Shown here one piece after another: positions 2,679-12,539 of a stretch of DNA of 64,000 nt. The notes under the pieces are model-generated. The model saw nothing but the letters and a program-made list of their open reading frames with translations, did not search any database and was not told the DNA's origin. Position 1 is the stretch's first letter, and each line of letters begins with the position of its first letter. The DNA comes from Acidiphilium sp. (GTDB lineage: Bacteria; Pseudomonadota; Alphaproteobacteria; Acetobacterales; Acetobacteraceae): positions 19,061 through 83,060 of the forward strand of contig JAQTXH010000002.1 of assembly GCA_028688905.1 (NCBI GenBank). Direction: 5' to 3'. The position numbers were made by a program, and so were the translations under genes.

Positions 2679-3512
2679 CTAACACGCCCAATTCCGCGGC
2701 ATCGCCCGCCCTCCTCGCAACACATCCAAAACCCGCACCACAAGCCCGCGCAGTGCCGTTCCAGTCTGGGCCAGAATCCGCACCAGAAGCAAGCCATTCC
2801 ATACGCTGGCACCGGCCTGCGCATCGCCCAACGCCAGACGCACGGTATCGAGTTGCCCGACCGCGTCGGGTGCGGCGAGGAGAATTGTGGCGAGGCCGGC
2901 GGCATTGCCGAGCATCGCGCGTCGCGCTGCGCCGGTGAACGGGTTGGGCGGTTTCAATGCATCGCGAAAAATCAAAGTACCGTCGCGATAAAGTTCGATG
3001 ATGTCGCTCAGATCGAGGCGGTTCACGGTCTCGCCCATCGCGGCGCGGCCGAAAATGAGGGTTTCGACGCCGAGGTAGCGTGATGATCCGGTCAGGTCGA
3101 TGTGCAAGCGGCGGGTGAGCGCGGATTGGTCGAACAGGATGGTCTCCTGCGGCAGATATTCCACGCTCGCGGCGGCTTCGATGCGGATGCGCGTGGTGAT
3201 GCGCGCGGGTGAATCGGTGGTGCCGGCGCGATAGATGCGTTCGGCACTCTGGGTGCTGATGGTGAGGACGGTATTCGGTTGGCCGGTGATGCTGATGGTG
3301 TGGGAGTCGCCGCCGGCGATGCCGCCGCCGGTGTTGAGCAGAATTGCGGTGGCCTCGGTCGCGGCTTCGTGGTGGAGCATTCGCAGGCGGAGAGGCCCGG
3401 CCTGATGCAGGCGGTCGAGCACGGTGCTGCCGTCGCGCGGCTTGACCGACAGTTCGATCCGCCCGGCCGAGCGTTGCGCGACGCTGGGGCGGCGGGGCGA
3501 TAGCGCGTTCAG
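2679..3512 (-). CDS. ureD: Urease accessory protein UreD
   Basis: LHQAGPLRL, LLNTGGGIAGGD, LTISTQSAERIYR and EYLPQETILFD motifs. The start is uncertain: CTG at 3512 (CTGA overlap with the fmdB stop) or ATG at 3593 inside fmdB. Confidence 0.93.
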   Translation of the reverse strand: MNALSPRRPSVAQRSAGRIELSVKPRDGSTVLDRLHQAGPLRLRMLHHEAATEATAILLNTGGGIAGGDSHTISITGQPNTVLTISTQSAERIYRAGTTDSPARITTRIRIEAAASVEYLPQETILFDQSALTRRLHIDLTGSSRYLGVETLIFGRAAMGETVNRLDLSDIIELYRDGTLIFRDALKPPNPFTGAARRAMLGNAAGLATILLAAPDAVGQLDTVRLALGDAQAGASVWNGLLLVRILAQTGTALRGLVVRVLDVLRGGRAMPRNWAC

Positions 3513-3829
3513 TGACCGATCATCCAGGGCCGTTTGCCGGGGAAGGATTTTTTCACATTGGCGTTCGGCACCAACGGCTTGCAGCAGCCGCATCCCGAGG
3601 GGTGCTTGCCGCTGCGGCGCGAGGTTTCAGGCGCGTGGGCGCTGCGCTCGTTGGTCGCGAAGGCGCGGCGGCGCGCTGATTCCATGATCGAGAGCATCGG
3701 CACCGAGAGCAGGGCGCGGGCTGATGGATTGCCGCAGTCCGGGCAAGGCTGCGGCTGATCGAACTGGGCGATCGGGGCGATGGTTTCGAACCCGCCACAG
3801 GTGGCGCATTCGTATTCATAGACCGGCAT
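3509..3829 (-). CDS. fmdB: FmdB-family zinc-ribbon regulatory protein
   Basis: MPVYEYECATCG...QPCPDCG, C-terminal HPSGCGCC and RPWMIGH; lies directly downstream of formamidase. Confidence 0.92.
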   Translation of the reverse strand: MPVYEYECATCGGFETIAPIAQFDQPQPCPDCGNPSARALLSVPMLSIMESARRRAFATNERSAHAPETSRRSGKHPSGCGCCKPLVPNANVKKSFPGKRPWMIGH

Positions 3830-3866
3830 GGGAACTCCGTTTGGAGGTCGGGGGGTGGGCCGCGGC

Positions 3867-3922
3867 ATGATACTTGCGTGATTCTTGCATACGTTTACCT
3901 ACGGCATACTCTTACTTGCGTA
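3867..3922 (-). promoter_or_regulatory. Putative internal promoter for fmdB-ureDABCE with two imperfect TACG-N8-CGTA sites
   Basis: Minus-strand TATCAT (3872-3867) is -10-like. TACG-N8-CGGC at 3890-3905 and TACT-N8-CGTA at 3907-3922. Confidence 0.45.
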
Positions 3923-3924
3923 CG

Positions 3925-5157
3925 TCAAAGATCAGGTGCCAACAACACATCCGACCCTGCCATATCCCGCGGTGCCGGTCCATCGGCGCTCGGATTGATA
4001 TCGAAATCGAAAATCTCGGTCGGCAGATAGAGGGTGGCGCAGGCGTTCGGAATATCGACCACGCCGGAAATGTGGCCGTGGACGGGGGCGGTGCCAAGGA
4101 TCGAGTAGGCTTGGGCACCGGAATAGCCGAATTTTTTCAAATAGTTGATCGCGTTCAGACAGGCTTGCTGATAAGCGACGAACACGTCGAGATAATGCTG
4201 GCCGCCCTGATCGTCGACCGAGATACCCTCGAAGATCAAAAAATCGTTGTAGTCGGGTTTGATCGGGCTGGGTTTGAAAATCGGGTTTTTGATGCCGTAT
4301 TTCGCAACCCCGCCCTTGATCAGCGAATGGATGCCCAGGTGAATCCAGCCGGGCATTTCGATGGCACCGCAGAAGGTGATTTCGCCGTCGCCCTGGCTGA
4401 AATGGAGATCGCCGACCGAGAGACCGGCTCCCTTCACATAGACCGGGAAATAGACCCGTGCGCCGCGCGACAGATCCTTGATGTCGCAATTGCCGCCGTG
4501 CTCACGGGGCGGCACGGTGCGCGCACCGGCCGCCGCCGCCGCGTCGCGCGCCTCGCCCTTCAGCCTGCCCATATGGGCGGTGCCAGGGAAGGGCGCGTTG
4601 GCCAGCGGTGGGATGCGGGTGGGGTTGGTATTGATGAAATCGACCTCGCGTTTGTTCCAGGTCGCGAGCAATGACGGGTCGGGCATGCAGCCGATCAAAC
4701 CCGGGTGAACCAATCCCGCAAACCGCACGCCGGGGATGTGGCGCGAGGTGGTGAACATACCCTTGATATCCCAGATCGATTTCTGCGCCTGGGGGAAATA
4801 ATCGGTGAGAAACCCACCGCCGTTCTGCTTGGAGAAAAACCCGTTGAAGCCCCATTCATTGCCGGGCAGCGCGCCGATGTCGAGAATATCGACCACCAGC
4901 AGATCGCCGGGTTCGGCCCCTTCCACCGCGATCGGGCCGGACAGGAAATGGACGGTGGTGAGGTCGATATCGCGCACATCGGCCGCCGATTCGTCGTTCT
5001 TGATGAAGCCGCCGGTCCAGTCGTAGGTTTCCAGAATGAAATCATCGCCGGGTTTGACGGTGGCCACCATCGGCACATCCGGGTGCCAGCGATTGTGGAT
5101 CATGTCGTTTTCGTATGGCGATTGGGTGAGATCGACCTTGATCAACGTTTCCGTCAT
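3925..5157 (-). CDS. fmdA: Formamidase (acetamidase/formamidase family)
   Basis: HNRWHPDVP, HFLSGPIAVEGAEPGDLLVVDILDIG, PPREHGGNCDIKDLSRG and GDLHFSQGDGEITFCGAIEM. Start ATG 5157 follows a GGAG RBS. Confidence 0.97.
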   Translation of the reverse strand: MTETLIKVDLTQSPYENDMIHNRWHPDVPMVATVKPGDDFILETYDWTGGFIKNDESAADVRDIDLTTVHFLSGPIAVEGAEPGDLLVVDILDIGALPGNEWGFNGFFSKQNGGGFLTDYFPQAQKSIWDIKGMFTTSRHIPGVRFAGLVHPGLIGCMPDPSLLATWNKREVDFINTNPTRIPPLANAPFPGTAHMGRLKGEARDAAAAAGARTVPPREHGGNCDIKDLSRGARVYFPVYVKGAGLSVGDLHFSQGDGEITFCGAIEMPGWIHLGIHSLIKGGVAKYGIKNPIFKPSPIKPDYNDFLIFEGISVDDQGGQHYLDVFVAYQQACLNAINYLKKFGYSGAQAYSILGTAPVHGHISGVVDIPNACATLYLPTEIFDFDINPSADGPAPRDMAGSDVLLAPDL

Positions 5158-5220
5158 GGCATTCTCCTGCAAAACCGGTCAATGGTGGCGCAAGGGTCCG
5201 GCTTAATCGTGCCGGGCTGA

Positions 5221-5238: not shown

Positions 5239-5321
5239 AGGCATGCGCGAGATTGCGGGCGAAGACCGCCGCGGCAACCGGATTTCGGGGGATGATGCGC
5301 CGCAACTGGAAGGGACATCGC

Positions 5322-8300
5322 TTGGCTCTGCGCCAACGAATCACCGCGCCGCGCCGTTCGTATAACCAATGGGTCGCGAACGAGACGCTGGAAGACTACG
5401 CGCTGCGGTTCACCGCCCTGAGCGCGCGGCGATTTTCTGCCGGGCGGGTAGCGGACACCGCATTCGGGGCTACCGCGTTTCTCGCCCTTGAAGCGATCGG
5501 CGGTGCCATCACCCTGCGGTTCGGTTTTGCTAACGCGATGCCGGCAATATTGGCGGCGGGGTTGATCATTGCCCTCACGGCGGGGCCGATCGCGTTGGTG
5601 GCAGCGCGGGCCGGGGTGGACATCGACTTGCTGACGCGCGGTGCCGGGTTCGGTTATCTGGGTTCGACCGTCACGTCGCTGATCTACGCGACATTCACGT
5701 TCATTTTTTTCGCGATCGAGGCCTCGATATTGTCCGGGATGCTGGCGTATTGCGTGGGGATACCCGAGTGGCTCGGCTACATCATCTCGGCGGTGCTCGT
5801 GTTGCCGATGGTTGCGTTCGGCATCACTTTCATCAGCCGGTTCCAGTGGCGCACGCGCGGACTGTGGCTGATCCTGAATTTTGCGCCCCTGATCGCGCTG
5901 CTGTGGCTGGCGGCGCGCGGCCGGATCGATCTGGGGCCATGGGTCCGGTTCGGTTCGGGGTTCAACTGGCTGGATTTCGGGGCGTCTCTCTCGGTGATCG
6001 TGTCGCTGATCGTGCAAATCGGCGAGCAGGTCGACTACCTGCGCTTCCTGCCGCCACCGGTCCCCGGCGAGCGGGCCGCCTGGTGGCGCGCGGTGATCAT
6101 TGCCGGGCCAGGCTGGGTGGTTCCGGGCATCGTGAAACTGGCGGCAGGGTCGTTGCTGGCGGCGCTGGCGGTGCATGCCGGTATCGCGATTGGCGAGGCG
6201 GGGCAGCCGGTCGTGATGTATCGTACCGCCTGGGCGATGATCCTGCCGCATCCGCTTATGTTTCTGGCGATTCCGCTGACAGTCGCGCTGGTGCTGGTCG
6301 CGCAGCTGAAAATCAACGTCACCAATGCCTACGCCGGGTCGATTGCGTGGTCGAATTTCTTCTCCCGCCTGACCCATCGGCATCCTGGCCGGATCGTGTG
6401 GGTCGGGTTCAACGTCGCGATCGCCTTGTTGCTGATGGAGCTTGGGATTTATCGGGCGATCGAACATATCCTGGTGTTCTATGCAGTGTTGGCCTGCTCC
6501 TGGGTGGGGGCGATTTTCGGGGATCTGGCGATCGCCAAGCCGCTGGGGCTGGCACCGCATCGGATCGAATTCAAGCGCGCGCATTTGTTCGACATCAACC
6601 CGGTGGGCCTGGGCAGCATGGCGTTGGCGGTGCTGCTGGGCAGCATCGCGATGAGCGGTGCGCTGGGGCCAGTCGCGCGGGCATTTTCACCGATCCTCGC
6701 GCTGGTCCTCGCAATCGTCGCGGCACCGGCGATTGCCGCGATGACCAAGGGACGCTTCTATCTTGCCCGCAAGCCGCGCCGGTCGTGGCGCGGCGGGGCG
6801 CGACGCGTCTGTATCGTCTGCGCCAACACTTTCGAAGCTGAGGACATGGCGCATTGCCCCGTCTACGCCGCGCCGATCTGCTCGCTGTGCTGCACGCTGG
6901 AGGCGCGTTGCCACGATGCGTGCAAGCCGCAGGGGCGCTACGGGGTGCAACTGTCGTCGGTGGCCAATGCGGTGTTGCCGGCATGGGCATATCGGCGACT
7001 GTCGCCAGCGGGCTTGCGGTTTTTATTTGTTTTCAGCATCGCCAGCACCCTTCTGGGTGGTTTGCTCGCAGCACTATACTGGTTGGCCAACCCGCCAAAT
7101 CCAGCGGCTTCGGCTTTGCTGGCGCATGCCCTGTGGCGAGCGTTTTTGTTGCTTTCGATTGTCTCCGGCGTGGTCGCATGGCTGGGCGTTCTCGCGCGCG
7201 AATCCCACCGTGCCGCCGAGGCTGAAACCGCGCAGCAGACGCGGTTGCTGCTCGCCGAGATTGAGGCGCACCAGCGTACCGACGCGCAGCTGGCCCGGGC
7301 GCGCGAAGCGGCGGAGGCTGCCAATCTTGCGAAAAGCCGCTTCGTCGTCGGCGTCAGCCATGAATTGCGCTCGCCCCTCAACGCCATTCTGGGATATGCG
7401 CAACTGCTCGAAATCGACCCCACGATCCCCGAAAAGCGTCGCCACGCACTGCGGGTGATCCGCCGGTCGGGTGAGCATTTGTCGGGCCTGATCGAGGGCC
7501 TGATGGATATTGCGAAAATCGAAGCCGGGCGGATCGAGATCGAGCGGCGGGAAATCCGCCTGCATGAGTTTTTGAGCCAGATCGCCGATATGTTTAGCCA
7601 CCAGGCGGCGGCGCGCGGCATCGGGTTCGTATTTGATTGCCCGCAGACGCTGCCTGAAACCGTGACCACCGACCCGACGCGGCTGCGCCAGATTCTGATC
7701 AATCTGCTCTCCAACGCCATCAAGTTCACCTCCACGGGTGAGGTACGGCTGGCGGTGCGGGTTCCGGGGCAGGTGGCGGAGTTCACCGTGAGCGATACGG
7801 GGTCGGGCATTGCGCCGGAGCATCGCGCGCGGATTTTCGAACCCTTTCAGCGGATCGCACCCCGCGCCGGCGCGGCACCACCGGGCATTGGGTTGGGATT
7901 GACCATCACCAAACTGCTCGCCCAGATTCTCGGCGGCGATATCACGGTGGCGTCCGAGTTGGGCCAGGGCAGCAGGTTCACGGTGCGGCTGATGTTGTCG
8001 CACCGGGCGCGCGGAGTCATGATCGCTCCGCCCAAGCCGGCGGTAACCGGCTATGGCGGTACCCGCCGGCGGATCGTGGTGACCGATGACAACGCCACCC
8101 ACCGCGCGTTGCTGGAAGATGCACTGGCCCCGCTGGGGTTCGAGGTACTATCCGCCCCAGACATCCGGTCCTGCCTCGACCTCGCGCAATCGGCGCAGCC
8201 CGATCTGTTCGTGCTCGACCTTTCGATGCCCGATGGCGATGGTGTCGGGCTGGCGGAGCGGCTGCGGGCAGCGGGGCACGGGCATACCCCGATCATTCTG

Positions 8301-8684
8301 GTCTCGGCCGATGCCGGCGAGGTTGCCAGACTACGCGCCCATGCCTCACCATTCGATGCGCTGTTAGTCAAACCGCTCGATCTGCGTCAGTTGCTCGATG
8401 ACATAGGACGGCTGCTGCATCTAACTTGGGAGACCGGCAATGTCGCCCCGAATATCGCCAATCACCTTGAACCGGCTTTAAGCCGTTTGGTGCCCTATGC
8501 CGGGGAACTGCGCCGGCTCGCGGAAATTGGCTTTGTCCGGCCGCTGCGGGATCGGATCGACGAACTGACCCTCGCCGATCCTGAGGCCGCACCGGTGTTA
8601 GTCGATCTGCGGCGTCTGCTCGATGAGTTTCGTCTGCCCGAACTGATTGCGGCTTTGGCCGGCCTCGATCGGGATGCGGCATGA
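5322..8684 (+). CDS. Hybrid sensor histidine kinase: NCS1/purine-cytosine-permease-like transporter domain + Cys-rich module + 2 TM + HisKA + HATPase + REC
   Basis: About 500 aa of multi-TM N-terminus (ETLEDYALRF, QIGEQVDYLRF, KINVTNAYAGS), then CxxC...CSLCC...CHD.C, SHELRSPLNAILG, LINLLSNAIKFT, DTGSGI, GIGLGL and a REC domain (TDDN, LDLSMP, KP). The ORF is open from 5253; the probable start is TTG 5322 after GAAGGGA. Confidence 0.92.
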   Translation: MALRQRITAPRRSYNQWVANETLEDYALRFTALSARRFSAGRVADTAFGATAFLALEAIGGAITLRFGFANAMPAILAAGLIIALTAGPIALVAARAGVDIDLLTRGAGFGYLGSTVTSLIYATFTFIFFAIEASILSGMLAYCVGIPEWLGYIISAVLVLPMVAFGITFISRFQWRTRGLWLILNFAPLIALLWLAARGRIDLGPWVRFGSGFNWLDFGASLSVIVSLIVQIGEQVDYLRFLPPPVPGERAAWWRAVIIAGPGWVVPGIVKLAAGSLLAALAVHAGIAIGEAGQPVVMYRTAWAMILPHPLMFLAIPLTVALVLVAQLKINVTNAYAGSIAWSNFFSRLTHRHPGRIVWVGFNVAIALLLMELGIYRAIEHILVFYAVLACSWVGAIFGDLAIAKPLGLAPHRIEFKRAHLFDINPVGLGSMALAVLLGSIAMSGALGPVARAFSPILALVLAIVAAPAIAAMTKGRFYLARKPRRSWRGGARRVCIVCANTFEAEDMAHCPVYAAPICSLCCTLEARCHDACKPQGRYGVQLSSVANAVLPAWAYRRLSPAGLRFLFVFSIASTLLGGLLAALYWLANPPNPAASALLAHALWRAFLLLSIVSGVVAWLGVLARESHRAAEAETAQQTRLLLAEIEAHQRTDAQLARAREAAEAANLAKSRFVVGVSHELRSPLNAILGYAQLLEIDPTIPEKRRHALRVIRRSGEHLSGLIEGLMDIAKIEAGRIEIERREIRLHEFLSQIADMFSHQAAARGIGFVFDCPQTLPETVTTDPTRLRQILINLLSNAIKFTSTGEVRLAVRVPGQVAEFTVSDTGSGIAPEHRARIFEPFQRIAPRAGAAPPGIGLGLTITKLLAQILGGDITVASELGQGSRFTVRLMLSHRARGVMIAPPKPAVTGYGGTRRRIVVTDDNATHRALLEDALAPLGFEVLSAPDIRSCLDLAQSAQPDLFVLDLSMPDGDGVGLAERLRAAGHGHTPIILVSADAGEVARLRAHASPFDALLVKPLDLRQLLDDIGRLLHLTWETGNVAPNIANHLEPALSRLVPYAGELRRLAEIGFVRPLRDRIDELTLADPEAAPVLVDLRRLLDEFRLPELIAALAGLDRDAA

Positions 8685-9571
8685 ATTTCCGACCCACCAT
8701 TCTGGTCGTCGACGATGATCCCGCCATGCTCGGCTTGTTGACCGAAACGCTCGAAGCCGCCGGCTATAACGTGTTGGTGGCATTGCAGGGCGAAATGGCG
8801 CTGAGCATCATTGAGCGGATCACCCCGGACGCGGTGCTGCTGGATGCGATGCTGCCTGGTATTGACGGTTTCGAAACCTGCCGGCGGATCAAGCAGCGCC
8901 CCGCCTGCGCCCTGGTGCCGGTGATTTTCATGACCGGCCTGGCGGAGACCAATCACGTGGTCGACGGTCTGCAGGCGGGCGGCGTCGATTACGTGACCAA
9001 GCCGGTGCGGCCCGATGAGGTTGCGGCACGGCTGAAAGTGCATCTGGCGAACGCCGGGCTGACCCGCAGCGCGCAGGCGGCGATGGACGCGGCCGGGCGG
9101 TTTCTGCTGGCGTGCGACCGGCGTGGCAAAATCCTGTGGAGCACCCGGCAGGCGGCGAAACTGGCAGGGCTTGGCACCGGCGAACCGCTGCCTGCCGCAA
9201 TAGCGGGTTGGCTCGCCGAGCGGATCGCGCGCGAAACCACGAATGAGACCCAGATGCTCGATCTGGCCGATCGCGTGGTCGAAATTGCACTGCTCGGTCA
9301 GATCGGCGTGGACGAGTTTCTGCTGCGGATCACCCAGCAGGATGTCGAGGCCGATCTCGCCCGGTTGCGTGCGCACGCTGCCCTGACGCCGCGCGAGGCG
9401 GAGGTGTTGTTCTGGCTGGCGCGCGGTAAATCAAACCGCGATATCGGGACCATTCTGGTGGTCAGTCCACGCACGGTCGATAAACATCTTGAACAGATCT
9501 ACGTCAAATTGGGCGTCGAGAATCGTGCCTCGGCGGTGGCGGCGGCGATGCGCGCCCTCGGAACTACGTAG
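8681..9571 (+). CDS. Response regulator, REC + LuxR-type HTH
   Basis: ILVVDDD, LLDAMLPGIDG, DYVTKP; C-terminal LTPREAEVLFWLARGKSNRDIG...SPRTVDKHLEQIYVKLGVENR. ATGA overlap with the kinase. Confidence 0.95.
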   Translation: MNFRPTILVVDDDPAMLGLLTETLEAAGYNVLVALQGEMALSIIERITPDAVLLDAMLPGIDGFETCRRIKQRPACALVPVIFMTGLAETNHVVDGLQAGGVDYVTKPVRPDEVAARLKVHLANAGLTRSAQAAMDAAGRFLLACDRRGKILWSTRQAAKLAGLGTGEPLPAAIAGWLAERIARETTNETQMLDLADRVVEIALLGQIGVDEFLLRITQQDVEADLARLRAHAALTPREAEVLFWLARGKSNRDIGTILVVSPRTVDKHLEQIYVKLGVENRASAVAAAMRALGTT

Positions 9572-9581
9572 TTTCACGCAG
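9564..9581. promoter_or_regulatory. CTACG-N8-CGCAG, one-mismatch copy of the TACG-N8-CGTA motif upstream of the transporter-amiE genes
   Basis: Overlaps the regulator stop codon and the 12-bp palindrome AACTACGTAGTT (9562-9573). TATGGT at 9609-9614 is -10-like. Confidence 0.4.
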
Positions 9582-9675
9582 GCTGGGGCGCGATAAGCCC
9601 CATTCCGTTATGGTGCCCTGACGTGGCCTGATCGGCTTACCATTTTTTCACTTCTGCCGATCGAAAGGTGCAACC

Positions 9676-11364
9676 ATGTCGATAACCTTGCCCGACGACC
9701 CAACTGACATCAAAACAGCCACAAAACCCCGCCGAAAATTCAACCGTTTCGTCAATAACCCGGTTATCGAAGACTATTCGCTGCGCTATGCGCCCAAAAG
9801 TTTTCGCACATGGTCGCAATATGCGGTGTTTTCGGCCGCACTGGGTGGCATCGCGTATCTGGCGGATCAAGCGATCGGCGGTTCGCTGGCGGTGGAATAT
9901 GGCTTCACCAACGCGTTTTACGCGATCCTGGCAGCCGCAACGGTGATCTTTTTGACCGGAATTCCGATTGCTTATTATTGCGCGAAATACAATGTCGACG
10001 TCGATTTACTAACGCGTGGTGCCGGATTTGGTTATCTTGGTTCGACCATCACCTCGGTCATCTATGCGAGTTTCACCTTCATATTCTTCGCCCTCGAAGG
10101 CTCGGTGATGGCGCAGGCCTTTAATTTGTATTTTGGCATTCCGCTCCCCTATGGTTACGCGATCGCCTCGCTGATGATCATTCCACTGGTCGCGTTCGGA
10201 ATGACATTATTGTCAAAATTGCAGGTGTGGACACAGCCGATCTGGTTGTTTCTGCTGTTTTCGCCACCGATCGCGGTTCTGGTGGTCGATCCGCATGCGA
10301 TCGGCCAATGGACCAGCTTTGCCGGATCGTCACCGAGTGGCACCGCCTTCAATCCGTTGCTGTTCGGTGCCGCCGCCGGTATTGCATTGTCACTGATCGC
10401 GCAAATCGGCGAGCAGGCGGATTATCTTCGGTTCATGCCCGACAAAACCAAGCAGAATTCTATCGGCTGGTGGCTTGCCGTGCTCGGTGCCGGTCCTGGC
10501 TGGGTCATTCTCGGTGCGGCGAAGCAATTGATGGGGTCGTTTTTCGCCTCGGTGGCCTTCAACCACGGCACACCGCTCGCCAAGGCTAACGAGCCGATCC
10601 AGATGTATCATGCCGGCTTCAACGCCATGTTCGGTGTCGGCATGGTCGCGATCAGTATCGCGACGTTTTTTATCATACTTTCACAAATCAAGATCAACGT
10701 GACGAACGCATACTCCGGTTCACTTTCCTGGTCGAACTTCTTTTCACGCATCTTCCACGCTCATCCTGGCCGCCTTGTTTACATCTTCCTCAACATTGGC
10801 ATCTCGCTGACATTGATGGAATTGAACATGTTTGAATTCCTCGGCAAAATTCTCGGGTTTTATTCGAACGTCGCGGTCGCCTGGATCGGTGCCGTGACCG
10901 CCGATCTCGTCATCAACAAGCCGTTGCTGAAACTCAGCCCGAATTATGTCGAGTTCAAGCGCGCCAATCTCTACAATTTCAACCCGGTCGGCTTCGGCTC
11001 GATGATCATTGCGTCGGTCATTTCGGTGGCCGCGTTCTTCGGGCTGTTTGGCGCTTATGCGGCGGCGTTTTCGTCTTTCATTGCGCTGGGTATTGCCTTC
11101 ATTGCCTCGCCGATTATCGCGATCATCACCAAGGGGAAATACTACGTCGCCCGCGATCCGTCGTATCACGCCGGAATTTCCCATAGCACGATGAACTGCG
11201 TGTCCTGCGGCTATGAGTTCGAGAAGGAGGATATGACCGGTTGCCCGTTCCACGCCGGCAACATCTGCTCGCTGTGCTGCTCGCTCGACAGCGATTGCCA
11301 TGACATGTGCAAAAAACCGCACGCGACCCCGTCCCTCGCGTTCGGCACACCACCGATCGTCTGA
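9676..11364 (+). CDS. NCS1/purine-cytosine-permease-like secondary transporter with C-terminal Cys-rich module; probable amide/urea importer
   Basis: 562 aa, about 12 hydrophobic segments. Shares EDYSLR, VDVDLLTRGAGFGYLGST, QIGEQADYLRF, QIKINVTNAYSGS and the CxxC...CSLCC...CHD.C tail with the kinase N-terminus. Confidence 0.88.
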   Translation: MSITLPDDPTDIKTATKPRRKFNRFVNNPVIEDYSLRYAPKSFRTWSQYAVFSAALGGIAYLADQAIGGSLAVEYGFTNAFYAILAAATVIFLTGIPIAYYCAKYNVDVDLLTRGAGFGYLGSTITSVIYASFTFIFFALEGSVMAQAFNLYFGIPLPYGYAIASLMIIPLVAFGMTLLSKLQVWTQPIWLFLLFSPPIAVLVVDPHAIGQWTSFAGSSPSGTAFNPLLFGAAAGIALSLIAQIGEQADYLRFMPDKTKQNSIGWWLAVLGAGPGWVILGAAKQLMGSFFASVAFNHGTPLAKANEPIQMYHAGFNAMFGVGMVAISIATFFIILSQIKINVTNAYSGSLSWSNFFSRIFHAHPGRLVYIFLNIGISLTLMELNMFEFLGKILGFYSNVAVAWIGAVTADLVINKPLLKLSPNYVEFKRANLYNFNPVGFGSMIIASVISVAAFFGLFGAYAAAFSSFIALGIAFIASPIIAIITKGKYYVARDPSYHAGISHSTMNCVSCGYEFEKEDMTGCPFHAGNICSLCCSLDSDCHDMCKKPHATPSLAFGTPPIV

Positions 11365-11369
11365 ACGCC

Positions 11370-11402
11370 GCCCTGGCCGGGCGCAACCCGCCCGGCCAGG
11401 GC
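11370..11402 (+). other. 14-bp perfect GC stem-loop between the transporter and amiE
   Basis: GCCCTGGCCGGGCG-caacc-CGCCCGGCCAGGGC; no U-tract follows. Confidence 0.6.
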
Positions 11403-11495
11403 CATATATCAGCCTGGCCGGAATCGCGAGGCGATCTTAGGCTGATGAAATAGCCCGGGCCATTCAACCTATTCAACCTATAAAAGGACATGCAC

Positions 11496-12539
11496 ATGAT
11501 GCACGGCGATATCTCATCGAGCTTGGATACGGTTGGGGTTGCGGTGGTCAACTACAAAATGCCGCGCCTTCACACCCGGACCGACGTTACGGCCAATGCC
11601 GAGGCCATCGCCACGATGCTGGTCGGCATGAAGACTGGCCTGCCGGGCATGGACCTCGTTGTTTTCCCAGAATATTCCACGCATGGCATCATGTACGACC
11701 GCGCCGAAATGATGGAAACCGCGACCACGATTCCGAGTCCGGAGACTGATATTTTCGCCGCGGCCTGCCGGAAAGCCAAGGTCTGGGGCGTGTTCTCGCT
11801 GACCGGCGAGCGCCACGAGGATCATCCACACAAGGTGCCGTACAACACGCTGGTCCTGATCGACGACACGGGTAAAATCGTCCAGAAATACCGCAAGATC
11901 ATGCCGTGGACGCCGATCGAAGGCTGGTATCCCGGTTCGACCACTTATGTCAGCGAGGGGCCGAAAGGACTCAAAATCAGCCTGATCATCTGCGACGACG
12001 GCAATTTTCCCGAGATCTGGCGCGACTGCGCGATGAAGGGGGCGGAACTGATCGTGCGCTGCCAGGGCTACATGTACCCATCCAAGGAACAGCAGATCAT
12101 CATGGCGAAGGCGATGGCCTGGGCCAACAATGTTTACGTCGCGGTCGCCAATGCGGCGGGGTTCGACGGCGTCTATTGCTATTTCGGTCACTCCGCGATC
12201 GTTGGCTTCGATGGCCGCACCCTGGGTGAATGCGGCGAGGAGGAATACGGGATCCAGTATGCGCAGTTGTCGAAATCATTGATCCGCGACGCCCGCCGGA
12301 ATGGCCAGTCGGAAAACCATTTGTTCAAGCTGTTGCACCGAGGCTACACCGGCATGCTCAACTCGCGCGAAAACGAACCCGGCAAGGCGGTCTGCCCCTA
12401 TGATTTCTACCGCGATTGGGTCACCGACCCCGAGGGTACGCGCCTCAAGGTGCAGGCATTGACGCGCGGCACGCTCGGCACACCGGAATGTCCGATCGAG
12501 GGCGTGCCGTTCGAAGGTGGCATGAAAGCTGCCGAATAG
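11496..12539 (+). CDS. amiE: Aliphatic amidase (nitrilase superfamily)
   Basis: [40 protein letters not shown] and [35 protein letters not shown]; Glu-Lys-Cys triad present. Confidence 0.97.

What the first reader, a model, noticed from the sequence alone, without database searches (positions are those of the whole stretch)
6810..11313. A 39-residue Cys8-His module shared by the kinase and the free permease
Seen: kinase CIVCANTFEAEDMAHCPVYAAPICSLCCTLEARCHDACK (6810-6926) and permease CVSCGYEFEKEDMTGCPFHAGNICSLCCSLDSDCHDMCK (11197-11313) have identical length and Cys/His spacing, directly after the last permease helix. Inferred: a two-metal Zn finger (or Fe-S/redox switch) analogous to STAC. 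Its retention in the non-signalling permease suggests transport gating or a permease-kinase docking surface.
Basis: partly seen in the sequence, partly recalled or inferred. Interest (0 to 1): 0.65.

Follow-up and report, generated by a model that had tools for sequence, protein, structure and literature searches.

The report
Eight-cysteine zinc-finger tail of amide permeases
A 39-residue, eight-cysteine module, probably binding two zinc ions, is a fixed cytoplasmic part of a widespread, unstudied family of amide/urea-linked transporters and transporter-derived sensors, and it probably couples the transporter body to signalling much as the STAC domain does in CbrA.

Summary
Both 39-residue segments translate as written, share 22 of 39 residues and have identical Cys spacing. 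They are the tails of two paralogous units of about 540 aa (46% identity).

The module C-x2-C-x11-C-x7-C-x2-C-C-x5-C-x3-C was present in every full-length relative examined: 118 free permeases, 120 kinases and 80 genome loci from at least seven phyla. A profile search of 1.84 billion proteins placed it only at this position of this family. It matches nothing in Pfam, NCBIfam or PDB sequences.

AlphaFold gives two beta-hairpins plus a short helix. The nearest folds, none significant, are binuclear RING/FYVE/PHD fingers.

In fused proteins the module lies between TM12 and a conserved two-helix hairpin that leads to kinase, GGDEF-EAL or PP2C outputs, so it is cytoplasmic.

Eight of 11 genomes with a free permease carry no kinase paralogue. 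That argues against a permease-kinase docking role.

Best reading: a Zn2Cys8 appendage that works like STAC. It is a new variant of a known kind. Metal binding and function are untested.

The parts
6810..6926 (+). Cys8 module of the hybrid sensor kinase (residues 520-558 of the 1143-aa ORF; 497-535 of the called 1120-aa protein)
   Evidence: Translation. All 8 Cys are invariant in 120/120 kinase homologues. Scores 76 bits against module profile A1.
11197..11313 (+). Cys8 module of the free permease (residues 508-546 of 562)
   Evidence: Translation. All 8 Cys are invariant in all 118 full-length permease homologues. Scores 81 bits against profile A1. AF2 pLDDT is 66-78 in the full-length model and 80-89 when folded alone.
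5322..8684 (+). Hybrid sensor kinase. Domain order: NCS1-like 12-TM carrier domain, Cys8 module, TM13-TM14 hairpin, coiled coil, HisKA, HATPase, REC, and a 90-aa tail with no assignment.
   Evidence: ORF and Pfam hits. Called start from P0126. 46% identity to the free permease over about 530 aa.
7014..7196 (+). Two extra TM helices (about residues 588-648 of the 1143-aa ORF) between the module and the signalling helix
   Evidence: Hydropathy peaks at residues 590-608 and 623-641. The same hairpin, with a WW(L/V)VL..ESR motif, is present in all 18 fused homologues inspected, whatever their output domain.
9676..11364 (+). Free NCS1-like permease with the Cys8 tail; a candidate short-chain amide/urea carrier
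   Evidence: AF2 pLDDT 85, pTM 0.86. Foldseek top hits are CodB 7qoa and Mhp1 2jln, E about 1e-9. No hit in Pfam, NCBIfam or PDB sequences.
8681..9571 (+). REC-LuxR(GerE) response regulator, whose start overlaps the kinase stop
   Evidence: Pfam Response_reg 7-118 and GerE 234-287.
3925..5172 (-). FmdA/AmdA formamidase, divergent from the kinase gene
   Evidence: Pfam PF03069, E = 1e-175.
3509..3868 (-). FmdB-type zinc-ribbon protein (Zn_ribbon_8); unrelated to the Cys8 module
   Evidence: Pfam PF09723, E = 9.6e-12. The module gives no such hit.
11490..12539 (+). Aliphatic amidase (CN_hydrolase) downstream of the permease
   Evidence: Pfam PF00795, E = 4e-52.

Best explanation
The module is a small cytoplasmic domain that most likely binds two Zn(II) ions through eight cysteines in a cross-braced, treble-clef arrangement.

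**Inferred metal sites.** Zn1 is held by C1, C2, C4 and C5, that is, a CxxC knuckle plus a CxxC at the end of a strand and the start of a helix. Zn2 is held by C3, C6, C7 and C8.

**Place in the family.** The module is a fixed, integral part of an uncharacterised NCS1-like carrier family linked to formamidase, amidase and urease genes.

[quoted passage not shown] In free permeases it stabilises or gates the inner face. In sensor paralogues it is the rigid relay that passes the carrier's conformational state to the TM13-TM14 hairpin, then to the signalling helix, and on to the kinase or another output.

**What is shown and what is inferred.**
- Shown: the sequence, its invariance, its exclusive association with this family, and its cytoplasmic side.
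- Inferred: zinc binding, ligand partition, packing against the carrier, and the relay or gating role.
For: **Invariance.** The eight Cys are present in all 118 full-length permeases, 120/120 kinases and 80/80 genome loci. These span Alpha-, Beta- and Gammaproteobacteria, Cyanobacteria, Actinomycetota, Bacillota, Myxococcota, Campylobacterota and Nitrospirota.

**Conservation beyond the ligands.** Non-ligand positions F/Y8, E9, D12, P17, I23, S25, L26, L30, D/E31, D36 and K39 are also nearly invariant. That is more than metal binding needs and points to a conserved contact surface. The module is as conserved as the membrane core (0.71 against 0.70), while its flanks are variable (0.49 and 0.41).

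**Exclusive association.** The module profile found 359 hits among 1.84e9 proteins. The best 150 are all collinear with position 500-560 of this family. A module-less sister carrier marks the family boundary.

**Cytoplasmic location.** In every fused form the order is module, then two TM helices, then cytoplasmic output domains.

**Varied outputs on a constant core.** Outputs include HK-REC, PAS-HK-REC-HPt, PAS-GGDEF-EAL, GAF-GGDEF-EAL and PAS-PP2C, while carrier, module and hairpin stay constant.

**Fold.** AF2 gives four short strands and a helix, with pLDDT 80-89 when the module is folded alone. The nearest PDB folds are binuclear zinc fingers, with TM-score up to 0.66 and rmsd 1.8 A over 38 columns.

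**Precedent.** STAC docks into the base of the SLC5 carrier in CbrA (PMC13022988).
Against: - No metal has been measured.
- The Foldseek matches are not significant (best E = 0.34).
- The tools gave no coordinates or PAE, so ligand partition and packing against the carrier rest on secondary structure and analogy only.
- AF2 is less sure of the module in the full-length model (pLDDT 66-78), and the linker is disordered.
- Invariance of the Cys cannot tell Zn from Fe-S or from a redox role.
- The family sample consists of best hits. More distant members lacking the module may exist beyond the one sister found.
Confidence: 0.5

Rival explanations
1. The module is a docking platform for another protein. 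Candidates are the paralogous kinase, FmdB, a PII-type regulator, or the amide hydrolases, which could form a metabolon with the carrier.
For: Cross-brace zinc fingers are typically protein-interaction modules. The conserved acidic surface (E9, D12, D/E31, D36) could bind a partner. In this window, and in Acidocella and Beijerinckiaceae loci, the permease and the kinase are neighbours. FmdB lies next to the permease in Leptospirillum.
Against: - 8 of 11 genomes with a free permease have a single module copy and no fused paralogue.
- Streptomyces and Leptolyngbya permeases stand alone, with no fmd or ure genes nearby.
- Only 31 of 80 loci have FmdA, AmiE or UreC within 6 kb, and 3 of 80 have FmdB.
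- No partner co-occurs as invariably as the carrier itself does.
Confidence: 0.15
2. The module is a regulatory switch. It could be a zinc-thiolate redox switch, an Fe-S cluster, or a sensor for a metal such as Ni, adding a second, cytoplasmic input to transport and signalling.
For: Eight invariant thiols sit in the cytoplasm. Zn-Cys4 redox switches exist in Hsp33 and RsrA (established knowledge). The loci are linked to nickel-dependent urease. The sequence alone cannot exclude Fe-S.
Against: - The spacing fits no ferredoxin, radical-SAM or WhiB Fe-S motif (direct reading of the sequence).
- The predicted fold is a compact knuckle-and-helix zinc finger.
- The family occurs alike in aerobes such as Streptomyces and cyanobacteria and in Sulfurimonas MAGs.
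Confidence: 0.12
3. The module has a purely structural role in biogenesis, stability or oligomerisation. It could act as a dimerisation or folding knob with no part in gating or signal relay.
For: Histidine kinases work as dimers. Small zinc knots often only stabilise a fold. The free permeases keep the module although they have no output domain.
Against: A pure stability role would not need the many invariant surface residues that are not ligands. It would also not explain the constant placement between TM12 and the signalling hairpin across five output types.
Confidence: 0.15

Closest known systems
STAC domain of SLC5/STAC sensor kinases and carriers (CbrA, CrbS/MxtR, RpuS)
   Same: Both are small cytoplasmic domains placed after the last helix of a LeuT-fold carrier, at the end of a 25-30-residue linker. 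Both occur in carrier-fused sensors and with plain carriers. In CbrA, STAC docks into the cytoplasmic base of the carrier and is proposed as the coupling element (PMC13022988; PMC9100948).
   Different: STAC is a four-helix bundle with no metal and follows SLC5 carriers. The module here is a 39-residue Cys8 knot of beta-hairpins and a helix on an NCS1-like carrier, and in sensors it is followed by two further TM helices. There is no sequence relation, since the module has no Pfam hit.
Cross-brace binuclear zinc fingers (RING, FYVE, PHD, AN1, ZZ; treble-clef fold group)
   Same: Both have eight metal ligands in about 40 residues, a CxxC knuckle, and a CxxC at a strand end and helix start. These folds are the nearest PDB neighbours of the AF2 model, for example 2zet_C (TM 0.66, rmsd 1.8 A) and HOIP RING1 7v8f_B.
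   Different: - The similarity is not significant (E >= 0.34).
- The ligand order differs: a CC doublet follows the third pair, and there is no His.
- The module is bacterial and tethered to the membrane.
- It belongs to no Pfam zinc-finger family. The single sub-threshold Prok-RING_1 hit came from 1 of 69 members.
Cytosolic termini of fungal NCS1 carriers (FurE, Fur4 LID)
   Same: Both are cytoplasmic tails of NCS1-fold carriers. In the fungal case they interact with the carrier body and tune gating and specificity (bioRxiv 10.1101/588368; PMC6597760).
   Different: The fungal tails are unstructured or helical, bind no metal, and serve endocytic control. They are not homologous to the module.
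Amt-fused sensors (Ks-Amt5 histidine kinase, Sd-Amt1 diguanylate cyclase)
   Same: Both use a carrier or channel as the membrane sensor of a nitrogen compound, fused to a kinase or c-di-GMP output (PMC5764959, PMC11152129).
   Different: The carrier fold differs (Amt trimer), coupling runs through a HAMP domain or a direct linker, and there is no Cys-rich module.

Membership tests
Cross-brace / treble-clef binuclear zinc finger (RING/FYVE/PHD-like) | Eight conserved metal-ligand positions within about 40-60 residues | tested here: met
   The eight Cys are invariant in all 118 full-length permeases, 120/120 kinases and 80/80 loci.
Cross-brace / treble-clef binuclear zinc finger (RING/FYVE/PHD-like) | Fold: a zinc knuckle plus a strand-end/helix-start ligand pair, with interleaved sites | tested here: inconclusive
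   The AF2 secondary structure fits. All top Foldseek hits are such fingers, but with E = 0.34-5 and TM 0.45-0.66. No coordinates were available to measure S-S geometry.
Cross-brace / treble-clef binuclear zinc finger (RING/FYVE/PHD-like) | Binds two Zn(II) ions | not testable with these tools
   Needs ICP-MS or a PAR assay on purified protein.
Cross-brace / treble-clef binuclear zinc finger (RING/FYVE/PHD-like) | Sequence membership in a curated zinc-finger family | tested here: not met
   No Pfam hit at E <= 1 for either copy. Among 69 members there were only scattered sub-threshold hits, with no family matched by more than 4 members. No PDB sequence hit at E <= 10.
[quoted passage not shown] | Four-helix bundle of about 70 residues following an SLC5 carrier | tested here: not met
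   The predicted structure is four short strands and one six-residue helix. The carrier is NCS1-like, not SLC5. No Pfam hit.
[quoted passage not shown] | Occurs both in carrier-fused sensors and with plain carriers, on the cytoplasmic side | tested here: met
   Free and fused forms both carry the module. The cytoplasmic side follows from the order module, 2 TM, output. This is an analogy only.
FmdB / Zn_ribbon_8 (PF09723) | Match to the PF09723 profile | tested here: not met
   The window's true FmdB (3509-3868) matches at 9.6e-12. The module gives no hit.
Fe-S cluster motifs (ferredoxin CxxCxxCxxxCP, radical SAM CxxxCxxC) | Characteristic Cys spacing | tested here: not met
   The spacing is C-x2-C-x11-C-x7-C-x2-C-C-x5-C-x3-C. 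No Fer4 or Radical_SAM Pfam hit. This does not exclude an atypical cluster.
NCS1 carriers (for the domain that bears the module) | LeuT/5+5 fold closest to Mhp1 and CodB | tested here: met
   Foldseek finds CodB 7qoa at E = 1.4e-9 and Mhp1 2jln at 3.4e-9, with TM (target) 0.66-0.74.
NCS1 carriers (for the domain that bears the module) | Match to Pfam PF02133 or to NCBIfam NCS1 models | tested here: not met
   No Pfam or NCBIfam hit for P0005. No PDB sequence hit even with a family profile. The carrier is therefore a distant, unmodelled branch.

The most novel reading that the evidence does not exclude
The Cys8 module is not just a structural knot but a second, cytoplasmic input. It would be a zinc-thiolate redox switch or a metal/Fe-S sensor that opens or closes amide and urea uptake and sets the gain of the transporter-derived sensors. 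If so, hundreds of bacterial species would combine external amide availability with internal redox or metal state in one polypeptide.
Probability: 0.12. Interest if true: 0.8.

Novelty: new variant of a known kind. Interest (0 to 1): 0.55.

Why it matters
Carrier-derived sensors ("transceptors") are rare, and how carrier motion reaches the output domain is an open question. The first structural hint, STAC docked under SLC5 in CbrA, dates only from 2026.

This family offers a second, independent solution: a different carrier (NCS1-like), a metal-knot coupler, and an added TM hairpin. It is widespread.
- It is present in 33 of 301 evenly sampled Pseudomonadota genomes.
- At least 598 stretches encoding a relative were confirmed in a collection with one genome per species.
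- It is joined to kinase, c-di-GMP and PP2C outputs.

In this window the same module occurs both in a plain permease and in its sensor paralogue. Module swaps and Cys mutants could therefore separate its role in transport from its role in signalling.

The family also points to a missing uptake and regulation system for formamide, short amides and urea, which a 2024 review of formamide use does not mention.

Tried and rejected
1. **Known-domain searches.** All were negative: Pfam on both 39-mers and on both whole proteins, Pfam on 69 module slices at E <= 10, NCBIfam, and PDB sequences with the single protein and with profiles.
2. **The module outside this family.** About ten representative hits seemed to place the module after unrelated sequence: P0260, P0286, P0291, P0299, P0348, P0349, P0268 and P0287. 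On inspection they are frameshifted Arg/Pro-rich miscalls or assembly chimeras, for example joined to ETF-QO or GtrA pieces. I rejected them as new contexts.
3. **Relation to the neighbouring FmdB zinc ribbon.** Rejected; there is no profile match.
4. **His as a ninth ligand.** Rejected, because the position varies.
5. **Permease-kinase docking as the reason for retention.** Disfavoured by single-copy genomes.
6. **PDB profile search with alignment A2.** It was uninformative for the carrier, because the kinase domains dominated the profile. I repeated it with the permease-only alignment A3.
7. **Literature.** Eight full-text searches found no paper on an NCS1-like sensor kinase, on this permease, or on its Cys-rich tail. 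A Dechloromonas genome paper lists a 1131-aa kinase and a 308-aa receiver next to urtA without comment; family membership was not checked.
8. **Coevolution analysis of module against carrier loops.** Not attempted. About 330 full-length sequences in two deep subfamilies are too few and too confounded by phylogeny.
Full report
**1. Observation**

- The first lies in a 1143-aa open frame at 5253-8684. It is called as 5322-8684 with a TTG start, 1120 aa. Pfam finds HisKA, HATPase_c and a receiver domain in it.
- The second lies in a 562-aa frame at 9676-11364.

The two 39-mers share 22 residues and have identical Cys spacing. This is homology, not chance. BLASTP aligns kinase residues 31-558 with permease residues 16-546 at 46% identity, E = 5e-164. 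The module is therefore the tail of a duplicated unit of about 540 residues. It holds 8 of the permease's 9 Cys and 8 of the kinase's 12.

**2. Surroundings**

The locus is an amide and urea island:
- ureC 205-1911, ureB 1911-2216, ureA 2240-2575 and ureD 2679-3593, all on the minus strand
- an FmdB-type zinc ribbon, 3509-3868 (-)
- formamidase FmdA, 3925-5172 (-)
- then, on the plus strand, the kinase, a REC-LuxR regulator (8681-9571), the free permease and an aliphatic amidase (11490-12539)

**3. The carrier**

Neither Pfam nor NCBIfam recognises the membrane domain, and no PDB sequence matches it even with a family profile. An AlphaFold2 model built from 112 aligned relatives is confident (pLDDT 85, pTM 0.86). 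Its nearest solved folds are the NCS1 carriers CodB and Mhp1 at E about 1e-9, followed by other LeuT-fold carriers.

**4. The module across the family**

The family is large. More than 5,900 permease-type and more than 8,000 kinase-type hits were scored. The pattern C-x2-C-x11-C-x7-C-x2-C-C-x5-C-x3-C was found as follows:

| Set examined | With the pattern | Source |
|---|---|---|
| Full-length closest permeases | 118 of 118 (the one failure is a protein cut off by a contig end) | |
| Closest kinases | 120 of 120 | |
| Best genome loci | 80 of 80 | |

The 80 loci come from Acetobacteraceae, Beijerinckiaceae, Bradyrhizobium, Burkholderiales, Methylococcaceae, Acidithiobacillus, Leptolyngbya and other cyanobacteria, Streptomyces and other actinomycetes, a Bacillota MAG, Sorangium/Polyangium and Sulfurimonas. 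A Leptospirillum (Nitrospirota) permease, P0121, also carries the pattern.

Several positions that are not ligands are nearly invariant as well: F/Y8, E9, D12, P17, I23, S25, L26, L30, D/E31, D36 and K39. The second His (position 19) is Tyr in the kinases. No His is a conserved ligand.

The module is as conserved as the membrane core (0.71 against 0.70 mean column conservation). The linker before it (0.49) and the tail after it (0.41) are variable.

**5. Is the module found elsewhere?**

A 56-sequence profile of the 39 columns was run against 1.84 billion representative proteins and gave only 359 hits at E <= 1e-3. I could inspect the best 150. All align collinearly with positions 500-560 of the kinase or the permease.

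The few hits that seemed to have other N-terminal contexts are frameshifted or chimeric gene calls. The remaining 209 weaker hits were not visible to me.

The window's own genome has just the two copies.

In an even sample of 301 Pseudomonadota genomes, 33 carry the family. Every strong match (E < 1e-200) runs through the module. The only weaker match (E = 8e-47) is a 497-aa sister carrier that shares the core motifs and the membrane-boundary motif (TRGRFYF) but has no Cys tail. The module therefore defines a clade.

**6. Topology and architecture**

In all 18 fused proteins inspected, the order after the module is the same:
- a 25-70-residue linker
- TM13
- a short outer loop
- TM14, ending in a conserved WW(L/V)VL..ESR..A.EE motif
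- a coiled coil

The outputs that follow differ: HisKA-HATPase-REC (this window), HisKA-HATPase, PAS-PAS-HK-REC-HPt, PAS-GGDEF-EAL, GAF-GGDEF-EAL and PAS-PAS-SpoIIE(PP2C).

Those outputs are cytoplasmic and two helices intervene, so the module is cytoplasmic. This agrees with the inside location of NCS1 C-termini (established knowledge for Mhp1). The constant carrier-module-hairpin core with swapped outputs marks it as a general sensor cassette.

**7. Fold of the module**

Folded alone from 69 aligned slices, the module gives pLDDT 82, with 80-89 over the Cys region. It has four short strands and a six-residue helix.
- C1 and C2 sit in the loop between strands 1 and 2, forming a knuckle.
- C3 is at the end of strand 3.
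- C4 is at the end of strand 4.
- C5 and C6 are in the first turn of the helix.
- C7 and C8 are in the following loop.

This is the treble-clef pattern. From it I infer one site made of C1, C2, C4 and C5 and a second made of C3, C6, C7 and C8.

Foldseek against the PDB finds nothing significant (best E = 0.34). Nearly every neighbour is nonetheless a zinc finger, and most are binuclear: RING (HOIP, RNF216, IRF2BP2), FYVE-type (melanophilin 2zet_C at TM 0.66 and rmsd 1.8 A; CARP2; EEA1), PHD, AN1, LIM and ZZ.

The tools returned no coordinates or PAE. I could not measure sulfur geometry or see whether the module touches the carrier.

**8. Test of the docking idea**

The module profile was run on 11 whole genomes that hold a free permease. 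Eight have a single copy and no fused paralogue: Acidithiobacillus ferruginosus, six Streptomyces or Streptacidiphilus, and Patulibacter. One has two free copies. Two have a free and a fused copy.

Streptomyces and Leptolyngbya permeases stand alone, with no amide genes nearby. Retention in free permeases therefore cannot be explained by docking to a kinase paralogue. The only partner always present is the carrier itself.

**9. Substrate context**

Formamidase, amidase or urease genes lie within 6 kb in 31 of the 80 loci. Fuller views:
- Leptospirillum: porin, permease, FmdB, FmdA, amidase, urease
- Rhodopseudomonas palustris BisB5: FmdB, FmdA, a Urt/Fmd-type ABC system, and divergently the kinase and a REC-LuxR regulator
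- Halothiobacillus: the kinase and regulator, divergent from the permease

This supports short amides or urea as the ligand. The substrate is inferred, not shown.

**10. Mechanism**

Best reading, at 0.5 confidence: a Zn2Cys8 knot that is an integrated cytoplasmic appendage of the carrier. In the permease it stabilises or gates the inner face. In the sensors it is the stiff joint between TM12 and the TM13-14 hairpin, so that outward and inward transitions of the carrier on ligand binding are passed to the signalling helix.

The precedent is CbrA. There the STAC bundle, after a 30-residue linker, inserts into a pocket at the base of the SLC5 carrier and is proposed as the coupling element (PMC13022988). 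Fungal NCS1 tails that tune gating are a second parallel.

Rivals are a partner-docking platform (0.15), a redox, Fe-S or metal switch (0.12), and a purely structural or oligomerisation role (0.15).

**11. Comparison and novelty**

The module is not a member of STAC, FmdB/Zn_ribbon_8, or any Pfam zinc-finger or Fe-S family. It works like STAC in position and association, and it looks like a cross-brace zinc finger.

No paper on this carrier, sensor or tail turned up in eight full-text searches. A 2024 review of formamide use mentions neither a permease nor a histidine kinase.

Earlier notes of this scan describe the same family in other genomes and also call it unstudied. Those are AI notes, not evidence.

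I rate it a new variant of a known kind: a transceptor with a cytoplasmic coupling domain, here built from a different carrier and a metal knot. Interest is moderate to good. The module is real, widespread, unmodelled and directly testable, but its role remains inferred.

Noticed in passing
window 9676-11364: The free permease gene has much lower G+C than its neighbours: 54.2% against 64% for the kinase and regulator, and GC3 0.70 against 0.77. Its product is nonetheless 67-77% identical to proteins of Gammaproteobacteria (Acidithiobacillus, Acidihalobacter, Halothiobacillus) and of Leptospirillum. This looks like horizontal spread among acidophiles.
   Followed up: partly
window 9040-9380 (regulator residues about 120-233): The REC-LuxR regulator has a middle segment of about 115 residues between the receiver and the GerE helix-turn-helix with no Pfam match. 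It may be an extra input or dimerisation domain.
   Followed up: no
window 8403-8681 (kinase residues 1051-1143 of the long ORF): About 90 residues after the kinase's receiver domain match no Pfam family. A Sulfurimonas relative has an HPt domain after its receiver, so this tail might be a degenerate HPt.
   Followed up: no
L036-L087 fused homologues; window about 7130-7260: All fused forms share a WW(L/V)VL..ESR..A.EE(S/L)DRQ motif at the end of TM14 and the start of the coiled coil, whether the output is a kinase, GGDEF-EAL or another type. This suggests a single origin of the carrier-module-hairpin cassette, followed by output swapping.
   Followed up: partly
L091 949-2442 (+): This is a 497-aa sister carrier in another Pseudomonadota genome. 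It shares the core motifs (LMTRGLGFGYMGS, QIRINVMNLYSGS, ATRGRFYF) but has no Cys module. It would serve as a natural outgroup for dating the gain of the module.
   Followed up: partly
window 11365-11410: A G+C-rich inverted repeat (CCCTGGCCGGGCG ... CGCCCGGCCAGGG) lies just after the permease stop and before the amidase gene (sequence seen). It could be a terminator or attenuator between the two genes.
   Followed up: no
L007 6716-10211: In a low-coverage metagenome contig, the permease-module-PAS-PAS-SpoIIE protein is split into a 413-aa gene and a 736-aa gene 44 bases apart. The split is probably a frameshift or sequencing error rather than a real two-gene arrangement.
   Followed up: no
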